From: a virus
Lineage: Duplodnaviria > Heunggongvirae > Uroviricota > Caudoviricetes
Reading direction: 5' to 3' (one strand)
DNA: 43,543 nucleotides
IMG/VR virus record: IMGVR_UViG_2541047719_000002
Span: 1 to 43,543 of that record
The notes beneath the pieces are model-generated. The model ran no database searches. It was not told the DNA's origin and saw only the letters and a list, made by a program, of their open reading frames with translations. The translations under genes were made by a program, and so were the position numbers. Positions 37,550 through 38,100 of the stretch are shown piece after piece (the stretch's first letter is position 1; each line of letters starts with the position of its first letter).

Positions 37550-37867
37550 CTATTTTTTCTCAGAGCTCATATTGTAATAGGTGGTATAAATAGAGATTGA
37601 TTTCTGACATGCTTCAAGAAATTGCTGCGGAGTCATCCCAAGCCTTGCTTGCTCTGTAGTAAGGAATCTCTGTAAGAATTCATTCCCACCTGGCATGTTT
37701 GTAGATTCTTGGAATATTGCCATTTGTTTGATTGCACCACACATACCAGCCATTTTCGAAGCTATCATGAGGCCTTGTATTTCATCAAAACTGCTATCGT
37801 CTGATTTTGTTTCTGCGTTAGCTATGCTCGAGAGACACAGGAGCAATAGGATAGCGATACGTTTCAT
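37550..37867 (-). CDS. Hypothetical periplasmic protein with Sec signal peptide, co-transcribed with mnt
   Basis: 105-aa ORF with signal peptide MKRIAILLLLCLSSIANA; start overlaps mnt stop by 4 nt. Confidence 0.5.
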   Translation of the reverse strand: MKRIAILLLLCLSSIANAETKSDDSSFDEIQGLMIASKMAGMCGAIKQMAIFQESTNMPGGNEFLQRFLTTEQARLGMTPQQFLEACQKSISIYTTYYNMSSEKK

Positions 37868-38100
37868 TTTGCATCCTTACCATACATGGTTTTCAGTGTT
37901 TCAAGCAGCGCATCCCTGAATTTGTCAACCTCTTTCTGAGCAAATTCATTGCTATTAAGCGATCTACCACAAACAGCATCTTCGATAATCTGTATTATTT
38001 CAGCATTCATGGAACGCTTGTTATGTTGCGCCCTGGCTTTAACCTTTGCCTTTAACTCTTTGGAAATCCTGATATTTATTTGCGGCTCTTCGCGTGACAT
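37864..38100 (-). CDS. mnt: Mnt-like ribbon-helix-helix repressor
   Basis: 78-aa ORF; N-terminal RHH motif (PQINIRISKELKAKVKARAQHNKRSMNAEIIQIIEDAV) resembles recalled P22 Mnt. Confidence 0.7.
   Translation of the reverse strand: MSREEPQINIRISKELKAKVKARAQHNKRSMNAEIIQIIEDAVCGRSLNSNEFAQKEVDKFRDALLETLKTMYGKDAK

What the first reader, a model, noticed from the sequence alone, without database searches (positions are those of the whole stretch)
37550..38100. Periplasmic protein translationally coupled to the Mnt repressor gene
The mnt stop overlaps the start of a 105-aa signal-peptide protein with two Cys residues, so it would be expressed in the lysogen whenever Mnt is. Lysogen-expressed periplasmic proteins in this position are candidates for superinfection exclusion acting on incoming DNA ejection.
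Basis: inference. Interest (0 to 1): 0.5.

Follow-up and report, generated by a model that had tools for sequence, protein, structure and literature searches.

The report
Exported prophage protein coupled to Mnt
A P22-like prophage carries a real, conserved gene for a small exported (periplasmic) protein whose start overlaps the stop of the Mnt maintenance-repressor gene. It belongs to an unnamed family spread on mobile elements across Proteobacteria; its function, plausibly envelope protection of the lysogen, has never been tested.

Summary
ORF105 (37550-37867, minus strand) starts in an ATGA overlap with the stop of an Mnt homologue (37864-38100). The locus is a complete P22-type immI region with arc, ant and sar RNA. 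The protein has a Sec-type signal peptide (MKR, hydrophobic core, ANA|E). Its mature part has two family-invariant cysteines; a third cysteine lies in the signal peptide.

The gene is under purifying selection (core dN/dS about 0.10). The ATGA junction is kept in every close relative examined, behind four different mnt alleles. More distant homologues also follow mnt-like genes, including in a lambdoid siphovirus.

The family has 257 clusters at 50% identity and no Pfam, NCBIfam or PADLOC model. Its predicted three-helix bundle has no informative structural match. It is unrelated to T4 Spackle, SieA or Rap1a. Outside P22-like phages it is cargo of integrase-bounded islands, prophage edges and a probable integron.

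Function is unknown. My best guess is a periplasmic binder or inhibitor that protects the lysogen's envelope (exclusion or immunity type). Expression in the lysogen is inferred: the near-identical Kapi1 mnt was not detected by RNA-seq. Moderate interest.

The parts
37550..37867 (-). ORF105: exported 105-aa protein (signal peptide residues 1-18, mature 87 aa, C43 and C87), member of phrog_19844
   Evidence: ORF listed. phrog_19844 matched at E 1e-69. No Pfam, NCBIfam or PADLOC match. Family alignments. dN/dS 0.10. AF2 three-helix bundle with core pLDDT 81-93.
37864..37867 (-). ATGA overlap: ORF105 start codon and mnt stop codon
   Evidence: Read. Conserved in all 28 close loci checked.
37874..37878 (-). 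Shine-Dalgarno AAGGA for ORF105, inside the last mnt codons
   Evidence: Read. Other alleles carry GGTGA at the equivalent place.
37864..38100 (-). mnt homologue (78 aa, Arc/ribbon-helix-helix repressor)
   Evidence: Pfam Arc, E 7e-13. 35% identical to P22 Mnt. 76/78 identical to Kapi1_063.
38101..38188 (.). mnt-arc control region with a 9+1+9 palindrome TGGTATAACGGTTATACCA (38152-38172), a candidate Mnt operator; probable weak Pmnt and Pant
   Evidence: Inverted repeat I1 plus reading. The consensus promoter scan found nothing at its threshold here, so the promoters are inferred by position from P22.
38189..38362 (+). arc homologue
   Evidence: Pfam Arc, E 2.6e-12.
38357..38423 (-). sar antisense RNA
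   Evidence: Rfam RF00262, 71.6 bits against a gathering score of 43. Terminator-like hairpin at 38392..38361.
38425..39303 (+). ant (antirepressor)
   Evidence: ORF. 99% identical to antirepressor ORFs in Kapi1-type loci; the Kapi1 counterpart is annotated 'anti-repressor'.
37355..37540 (+). orf61: convergent coiled-coil ORF ending 9 nt from the ORF105 stop (phrog_7586)
   Evidence: It is present beside either ORF105 or the alternative cassette Kapi1_062.
37141..37323 (-). orf60: second small exported protein, probably in the same leftward transcript (phrog_37095)
   Evidence: Kapi1_060 carries a DeepTMHMM signal-peptide note.
37122..37139 (-). terminator-like hairpin after orf60
36851..37045 (-). 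orf59a homologue (P22 orf59a, YjzC-like)
   Evidence: The stretch including it is about 97% identical at DNA level to P22.
36826..36845 (-). hairpin identical to the terminator annotated 't mnt' in P22; probable end of the leftward Pmnt operon

Best explanation
ORF105 is a lysogenic-conversion cargo gene in the known 'ant moron' of P22-like phages.

Shown:
- It is a real gene under purifying selection.
- It sits on the strand opposite the late operon and starts in an ATGA overlap with mnt.
- It encodes a Sec-type signal peptide and a roughly 87-aa helical mature domain with two invariant cysteines.

Inferred:
- In the prophage it is transcribed from Pmnt as part of a leftward operon: mnt, ORF105, orf60, orf59a, ending at the P22-type t-mnt hairpin.
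- It is translated through its own Shine-Dalgarno and by termination-reinitiation from mnt.
- It is exported by Sec, cleaved after ANA, and its two cysteines are oxidised to a disulfide bridging helices 1 and 3.

Most likely function (inferred, untested): a soluble periplasmic binder or inhibitor that neutralises a protein acting in the periplasm from outside. Candidates are a muralytic or ejection component of a superinfecting phage, or a cell-wall-targeting interbacterial toxin. It would work like T4 Spackle or a T6SS immunity protein without being related to either. The strongly conserved loop TKMPGGDEF and the polar face of helix 2 are the candidate contact surface.
For: Anatomy:
- Coordinates, overlap and ribosome-binding site.
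- The junction is kept behind 4 mnt alleles in 28 loci.
- The stretch holding P22's annotated t-mnt downstream of orf59a is about 97% identical in the window.
- sar RNA is present.

Real gene:
- Core dN/dS is 0.10.
- 257 clusters with E <= 1e-3.
- Invariant K38, G41, C43, G61, R75 and C87.

Exported:
- The signal peptide is seen across the family.
- DeepTMHMM note on the homologue.
- One UniProt entry is named 'Periplasmic protein'.

Function by association:
- mnt linkage recurs in distant alleles and in a lambdoid siphovirus (L039-41).
- In L054 the order is mnt, homologue, Rap1a immunity protein (PF18602, E 9e-18).
- In L042 an Imm_superinfect protein (PF14373) lies 1.1 kb away.
- In L012 the homologue follows SpvB/RHS toxin genes.
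- Islands carrying homologues also hold KAP NTPase, GmrSD, AbiC, HipBA and restriction-modification genes.
- Leftward ant-moron genes in relatives are mostly exported proteins or lipoproteins.
Against: - No experiment exists on any family member: the accession search found no papers, and database names are only 'hypothetical'.
- No conserved partner gene or adjacent effector was found.
- The disulfide could not be checked, because model coordinates are not returned.
- Immunity and exclusion proteins usually evolve fast, whereas this core is strongly conserved.
- mnt transcription in a closely related prophage was below detection in culture.
- One homologue (L014) sits among ordinary chromosomal genes.
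Confidence: 0.4

Rival explanations
1. One reading: a SieA-like superinfection-exclusion protein. It would block DNA ejection by P22-like phages by interfering in the periplasm with the ejection-protein conduit (gp7, gp20, gp16) or the needle.
For: - It occupies the same moron (between gene 16 and mnt) that holds sieA in P22.
- SieA blocks injection, and escape mutations map to gp16 and gp20 (PMC10883804).
- None of the 38 viral loci with a homologue has sieA within 2.5 kb, so the two could be alternatives.
- Only 22 of 66 P22-like phages carry sieA.
Against: - It is soluble and periplasmic, not an inner-membrane protein like SieA.
- Identical ORF105 alleles sit beside gp16 proteins that are 97% or only 21-24% identical to the window's.
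- Homologues occur in siphoviruses, small integrative elements, a probable integron, and in Colwellia, Methylophaga, Nitrosomonas and Acidobacteria.
- Core conservation (dN/dS 0.10) does not fit a fast-evolving phage target.
Confidence: 0.15
2. A host-fitness or envelope-remodelling factor not aimed at invaders. It would act on a conserved host periplasmic target, for example O-antigen polymerisation or chain length, peptidoglycan turnover, or stress tolerance. This would resemble lambda Bor or Lom, or the Iap inhibitors of O-antigen polymerase.
For: - The strongly conserved core and wide taxonomic spread suggest a conserved cellular target.
- Kapi1, which carries a homologue, changes its host's O-antigen by unidentified genes and increases host competitiveness (PMC8787464).
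- Gally's mnt region is induced 6-40-fold in macrophages.
- One homologue is in an ordinary chromosomal context.
Against: - Most contexts are mobile or defence-rich, not envelope-biogenesis loci.
- There is no similarity to any known envelope factor.
- No Kapi1 data implicate Kapi1_059.
Confidence: 0.25
3. A phage-cycle function. The periplasmic protein would serve the prophage itself, for example by sensing or modulating induction or lysis timing, or by feeding back on immI control. The coupling would exist to set a fixed Mnt:ORF105 ratio.
For: - Tight conservation of the ATGA junction with the maintenance repressor.
- Linkage to mnt-like genes even in a siphovirus.
Against: - The slot after mnt is interchangeable. 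Kapi1 and Emek carry an unrelated 69-aa cytoplasmic-looking ORF, or a 77-aa membrane ORF, with the same junction.
- Kapi1-type homologues sit away from mnt.
- Many homologues are in elements with no phage regulatory genes.
- P22 itself lacks the gene.
Confidence: 0.1

Closest known systems
P22 'ant moron' (immI region plus sieA, orf59a, hkcC), as defined for P22-like phages (PMC2629481)
   Same: Same genomic slot between gene 16 and the tailspike gene. Same mnt, arc, sar and ant control module. The same orf59a and t-mnt stretch, about 97% identical in DNA. Leftward genes of unknown function next to mnt are already described as variable.
   Different: P22 has no ORF105, orf60 or orf61. In the window these are inserted between mnt and orf59a, and sieA is absent.
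P22 SieA superinfection exclusion protein
   Same: Prophage-expressed, encoded in the same moron, acts at the envelope.
   Different: SieA is a 162-164-aa inner-membrane protein with three transmembrane segments and no signal peptide (PMC10883804). ORF105 is a cleaved-signal soluble protein with no sequence similarity to it.
T4 Spackle (Sp, gp61.3), a periplasmic inhibitor of the incoming gp5 tail lysozyme
   Same: Same size class (97 against 105 aa), N-terminal signal peptide, small periplasmic protein. This is the best functional analogy for how ORF105 could work.
Rap1a/Tai4-type periplasmic T6SS immunity proteins (PF18602)
   Same: Small signal-peptide proteins. A Rap1a homologue lies immediately downstream of an ORF105 homologue in the mnt operon of prophage L054.
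   Different: No homology (hhalign probability 1%). No effector gene was found next to any family member.
Alternative cassettes at the mnt junction (Kapi1_062/Emek orf69; Emek orf77)
   Same: The same ATGA junction and the same last mnt codons (…KDAK*), and the same downstream neighbour orf61.
   Different: Unrelated proteins. The 69-aa one has no signal peptide, and the 77-aa one is a membrane protein.

Membership tests
phrog_19844 / ORF105 family (unnamed; function unknown) | Full-length profile match | tested here: met
   E 1.1e-69 over residues 1-105 of 105. HMMER profile search found 257 clusters with E <= 1e-3.
phrog_19844 / ORF105 family (unnamed; function unknown) | Signal peptide, two invariant Cys and the K-x2-G-x-C-G … FQE-x-TKMPGGDEF-x2-RF … E-x-ARLG … C motif | tested here: met
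   Alignments A1 and A2.
Sec-exported soluble periplasmic protein | n-region charge, hydrophobic h-region, A-x-A cleavage site, no lipobox, no further transmembrane segment | tested here: met
   Read from the sequence. DeepTMHMM note on the homologue Kapi1_059. No dedicated predictor was available here, and export itself is not testable with these tools.
Sec-exported soluble periplasmic protein | Intramolecular disulfide C43-C87 | not testable with these tools
   Both Cys are invariant and lie on helices 1 and 3 of the model, but model coordinates are not returned.
P22 Mnt repressor (for the upstream gene) | N-terminal Arc/RHH domain plus C-terminal helix; divergent from arc and ant; sar RNA present | tested here: met
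   Operator binding was not tested.
Translationally coupled gene pair | Overlapping stop and start (ATGA), conserved across alleles | tested here: met
   Actual coupling of translation is not testable here.
T4 Spackle | Sequence or profile similarity of the mature domain | tested here: not met
   hhalign probability 5%; only the signal peptide aligns.
T4 Spackle | Shared fold | tested here: not met
P22 SieA | Integral inner-membrane protein with three transmembrane segments; sequence similarity | tested here: not met
   No BLAST hit to P22 SieA in the loci. ORF105 has one cleavable hydrophobic segment only.
Rap1a immunity proteins (PF18602) | Pfam or profile match | tested here: not met
   No Pfam hit. 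hhalign probability 1%.
Cor/Llp/Ltp-type exclusion lipoproteins | Lipobox L-[AS]-[GA]-C | tested here: not met
   The sequence around C11 is LLLC and the cleavage motif is ANA|E. C11 is not conserved.
Known anti-phage defence proteins (PADLOC-DB) | Profile match | tested here: not met
   0 families at E <= 1.

The most novel reading that the evidence does not exclude
The ORF105 family is a new, widespread class of mobile-element-borne periplasmic protection proteins. Each would be a single-gene, Spackle-like inhibitor that neutralises incoming muralytic or ejection proteins of phages, or cell-wall toxins. In P22-like and some lambdoid prophages it would be wired directly to the Mnt maintenance repressor, so that protection is produced exactly when the antirepressor is silenced.
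Probability: 0.3. Interest if true: 0.6.

Novelty: new member of a known kind. Interest (0 to 1): 0.4.

Why it matters
Only sieA has been studied functionally among the cargo genes of the ant moron of P22-like phages. This gene is common: the exact protein is seen on at least 1000 contigs, and the locus occurs in 81 of 5426 complete E. coli genomes. It belongs to an unannotated family spread by phages, islands and a probable integron across Proteobacteria.

If it is an exclusion or immunity factor, it would add a small, easily testable periplasmic defence family. It would also explain why it is hard-wired to the maintenance repressor. If it instead acts on a host envelope target, it would be a new lysogenic-conversion factor in gut E. 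coli and Salmonella.

Tried and rejected
- Pfam, NCBIfam and PADLOC scans of ORF105 and of distant members gave nothing.
- A PDB sequence-profile search gave only a chance hit at E 1.6.
- hhalign against T4 Spackle and against the neighbouring Rap1a found no relation.
- I looked for a conserved partner gene. The downstream 273-aa and 297-aa genes are unrelated to each other, and they and other neighbours have no informative Pfam match. Clustering 593 neighbour ORFs from 51 loci gave only integrases and P22-like virion and mnt genes as recurrent neighbours.
- Alignment A2 was too diverse for the locus search. The genome scan with A3 found only 6 loci.
- The promoter scan found no consensus promoter in the mnt-arc spacer or inside mnt. 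Pmnt is therefore placed by analogy only.
- No supplementary expression tables were available for the Kapi1 RNA-seq paper.
- I could not map 'hyp19' of the Kapi1 paper to a locus tag. The reported toxicity of a gene flanking it therefore cannot be assigned to Kapi1_059.
- I considered and rejected a lipoprotein (no lipobox), a membrane protein (a single cleavable hydrophobic segment) and a spurious ORF (dN/dS 0.10).

Full report
**What is there.** The window is an integrated P22-like (Lederbergvirus-type) prophage. The integrase is at 1419-2489 and the tailspike ORF at 39404-41332. Host genes follow: a PBP-family gene and an IS605 TnpB.

The flagged interval holds two minus-strand ORFs. The first, at 37864-38100, is a 78-aa Arc/ribbon-helix-helix protein. 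It matches Pfam Arc at E 7e-13, is 35% identical over its whole length to P22 Mnt and is 76/78 identical to Kapi1_063. The second, at 37550-37867, is the 105-aa ORF of the finding.

The surroundings are a complete P22-type immI region:
- A divergent arc gene (38189-38362).
- An antirepressor gene (to 39303).
- The sar antisense RNA, found by Rfam at 38357-38423 on the minus strand (71.6 bits).
- A perfect 9+1+9 palindrome in the mnt-arc spacer, which looks like an operator.

**The observation.** The reverse complement of 37864-37867 reads ATGA. The ORF105 start codon therefore overlaps the mnt stop codon by four bases, and an AAGGA ribosome-binding site lies six bases upstream, inside mnt. The N-terminus (MKR, IAILLLLCLSSI, ANA|E) is a textbook Sec signal peptide with no lipobox. 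The 47%-identical Kapi1_059 carries a DeepTMHMM 'signal 1-22, outside' note in GenBank. The protein has three cysteines. One is in the signal peptide and is not conserved. C43 and C87 in the mature part are invariant in the family.

**Is it a real gene?** Yes. Between the window allele and the 72% and 52% variants, the core (codons 36-100) has dN/dS of about 0.10. The signal peptide and linker are more relaxed at about 0.33. The word-indexed search found 11 close clusters in E. coli, Salmonella and Citrobacter. An exhaustive HMMER profile search found 257 clusters (at 50% identity) with E <= 1e-3. Nearly all of the 150 listed are about 100 aa. All sequences I aligned have an N-terminal signal-like segment. 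K38, G41, C43, G61, R75 and C87 are invariant. F52, Q53, T56, G60, F64, R67, F68 and E72 are nearly invariant. The exact window protein occurs on at least 1000 contigs, and the locus is in 81 of 5426 complete E. coli genomes.

**Is the link to mnt more than local accident?** Yes.
- In E. coli chromosomes the same protein (WP_000820796.1) follows three other Arc-family mnt alleles of 83, 84 and 82 aa. The 84-aa allele is almost P22 Mnt in its DNA-binding half. The 4-bp overlap is annotated at the 83- and 84-aa alleles and at the window-type 78-aa allele. At the 82-aa allele (L005) ORF105 is not annotated, but the junction sequence is the same.
- In 21 IMG/VR loci and 4 metagenome loci carrying the 99-100% or 72% variants, the junction is invariably ATGA.
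- The last mnt codons are shared between otherwise different mnt alleles. They are also shared with the junction in front of unrelated cassettes: Kapi1_062/Emek orf69, and Emek orf77. The position directly behind mnt is therefore an exchangeable cassette slot with a conserved coupling junction.
- More distant homologues also follow mnt-like genes. L054 has a Mnt 57% identical to P22's with a 20-bp gap. L039-41 are lambdoid siphovirus contigs in which an ant/arc/mnt-like module sits beside tail genes and the homologue is the next gene.
- The Kapi1-type variant (47%) is the exception. It lies at the far end of the moron next to gene 16.

**Probable operon.** ORF105 is antisense to the late operon, so it can only be read from a leftward promoter. 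No consensus promoter or terminator lies between mnt and ORF105. In the P22 record the terminator 't mnt' is annotated downstream of orf59a, not after mnt. The window is about 97% identical to P22 across the aligned orf59a stretch, including that terminator (36826-36845), and the homology breaks just where P22 mnt ends.

Relative to P22, the window therefore has ORF105, the convergent orf61 and a second small exported ORF (orf60, followed by a hairpin at 37139-37122) inserted between mnt and orf59a. The inferred transcript runs mnt, ORF105, orf60, orf59a.

Expression in the lysogen remains an inference with a real caveat. In Kapi1 lysogens mnt (Kapi1_063) was not detected above threshold in LB or simulated intestinal fluid, whereas Kapi1_059-062 are not on the paper's list of undetected genes (PMC12922286). 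In the P22-like prophage Gally, mnt was 40-fold induced in macrophages (PMC9928086).

**What is the protein?**
- No Pfam, NCBIfam or PADLOC model matches it or its distant relatives. PHROGs lists it as phrog_19844, function unknown.
- AlphaFold2 with the family alignment gives three helices in the mature part (residues 24-56, 61-76 and 80-103), with block-mean pLDDT of 81-93 over residues 31-90. C43 lies on helix 1 and C87 on helix 3.
- It is not related to T4 Spackle or to Rap1a (hhalign probabilities 5% and 1%) or to SieA.

**Where else does the family live?** Almost always on mobile DNA, as a stand-alone gene with no conserved partner.
- An integrase-bounded island in Pseudoalteromonas, with KAP NTPase, GmrSD and AbiC.
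- Small integrase/AlpA elements in Colwellia and another genome. One has a 4-bp overlap to its upstream gene.
- An element with a rolling-circle Rep.
- Positions beside IS110, or after SpvB/RHS toxin genes and near HipBA.
- Prophage edges next to lysis or tail-fibre genes in Pseudomonas-type phages.
- A RecT/YqaJ phage where a T4 Imm-type superinfection-immunity protein lies 1.1 kb away.
- An island with a Bro-N antirepressor-like gene and a large primase-like ORF (by eye; not confirmed by Pfam).
- What looks like an integron cassette array in Methylophaga (not verified).
- One ordinary chromosomal context.

In P22-like relatives the other leftward moron genes are also mostly exported proteins or lipoproteins. 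They include a Rap1a T6SS-immunity homologue directly after the ORF105 homologue in L054.

**Interpretation.** The anatomy is secure: an exported, Cys-paired small protein coupled to mnt in the ant moron. The function is open. The company it keeps favours an envelope-protection role of the exclusion or immunity type, working like Spackle or a T6SS immunity protein. That company includes immunity and exclusion proteins, defence islands and mobile cargo slots, and a single self-sufficient gene also fits such a role.

It is not excluded but is disfavoured, for three reasons. Identical alleles are indifferent to the neighbouring gp16 type. The family reaches well beyond hosts and elements where P22-like ejection proteins matter. 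The core is strongly conserved, which suits a conserved target such as a class of muralytic enzymes or a host envelope component.

A host-directed lysogenic-conversion role is a serious rival. Kapi1's unidentified O-antigen modification genes make an O-antigen-related role a lead worth testing, but no data implicate the homologue.

**Novelty.** The variable 'ant moron', with unknown genes beside mnt, is already described for P22-like phages (PMC2629481), and moron-encoded envelope proteins are a familiar kind. Three things are new here:
- Recognition of a sizeable, unannotated, MGE-borne periplasmic family.
- Its conserved coupling junction with mnt across alleles and phage types.
- The cassette-slot behaviour of that junction.

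I score interest as moderate.

Noticed in passing
window 38357-38423 (-): A sar antisense RNA (Rfam RF00262, 71.6 bits) overlaps the arc 3' end and the ant ribosome-binding region. It has a promoter-like site at 38459-38431 and a terminator-like hairpin at 38392-38361. The prophage therefore has the full P22 immI circuitry.
   Followed up: partly
window 38152-38172: A perfect 9+1+9 palindrome, TGGTATAACGGTTATACCA, lies in the mnt-arc spacer. It is a candidate operator for this Mnt allele. The consensus scan found no sigma-70 promoter in the spacer.
   Followed up: partly
window 37141-37323 (-): orf60 (phrog_37095) is a second small exported protein with two Cys in its mature part. It is probably on the same leftward transcript and is followed by a hairpin at 37139-37122. 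It is 59/60 identical to Kapi1_060.
   Followed up: partly
window 37355-37540 (+): orf61 (phrog_7586) is a coiled-coil ORF convergent with ORF105, and the two stops are 9 nt apart. It is conserved next to whichever cassette follows mnt. In Kapi1 and Emek its 3' end overlaps the 3' end of the cassette gene, so convergent transcription or antisense effects are possible.
   Followed up: no
L001 2906-3115; L002 2676-3115; L091 325-534: The slot directly after mnt is exchangeable. Unrelated ORFs of 69 aa (no signal peptide) and 77 aa (membrane) use the same ATGA junction and the same last mnt codons (…KDAK*).
   Followed up: partly
L054 3024-3383: A Rap1a-family T6SS immunity protein (PF18602, E 9e-18) is encoded in the mnt-side moron of a P22-like prophage, immediately after the ORF105 homologue. 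This looks like a phage-borne orphan immunity gene.
   Followed up: partly
L042 7427-7846 (-): A T4 Imm-type superinfection-immunity domain (PF14373) fused to a zinc ribbon lies 1.1 kb from an ORF105 homologue in a high-GC RecT/YqaJ phage.
   Followed up: no
L059 6031-12220: In Methylophaga the homologue lies in a run of small same-strand ORFs. They sit next to a divergently oriented IntI-like tyrosine recombinase and end with a toxin-antitoxin-like pair. This looks like an integron cassette array. I judged this by eye and did not confirm it with Pfam or attC searches.
   Followed up: no
L005, L006, L026, L045, L074 (gene 16-mnt interval): The same moron in E. coli prophages also carries Panacea-domain (antitoxin-type) and P63C-domain genes, in one case with an IS5 insertion. 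This interval is a hotspot for defence or toxin-antitoxin-like cargo.
   Followed up: no
Kapi1 (MT813197), literature: PMC8787464 reports that a deletion construct for 'hyp19' was toxic in non-lysogens, attributed to a flanking hypothetical gene. It also reports that the genes for Kapi1's O-antigen modification are unknown. I could not map hyp19 to a locus tag, so any link to Kapi1_059 is open.
   Followed up: partly
window 42413-43543 (+) and 41828-42304 (-): Beyond the tailspike gene the window runs into host DNA: a PEBP/PBP-family gene and an IS605-type TnpB (OrfB_IS605 plus the Cas12f-like TNB domain).
   Followed up: partly
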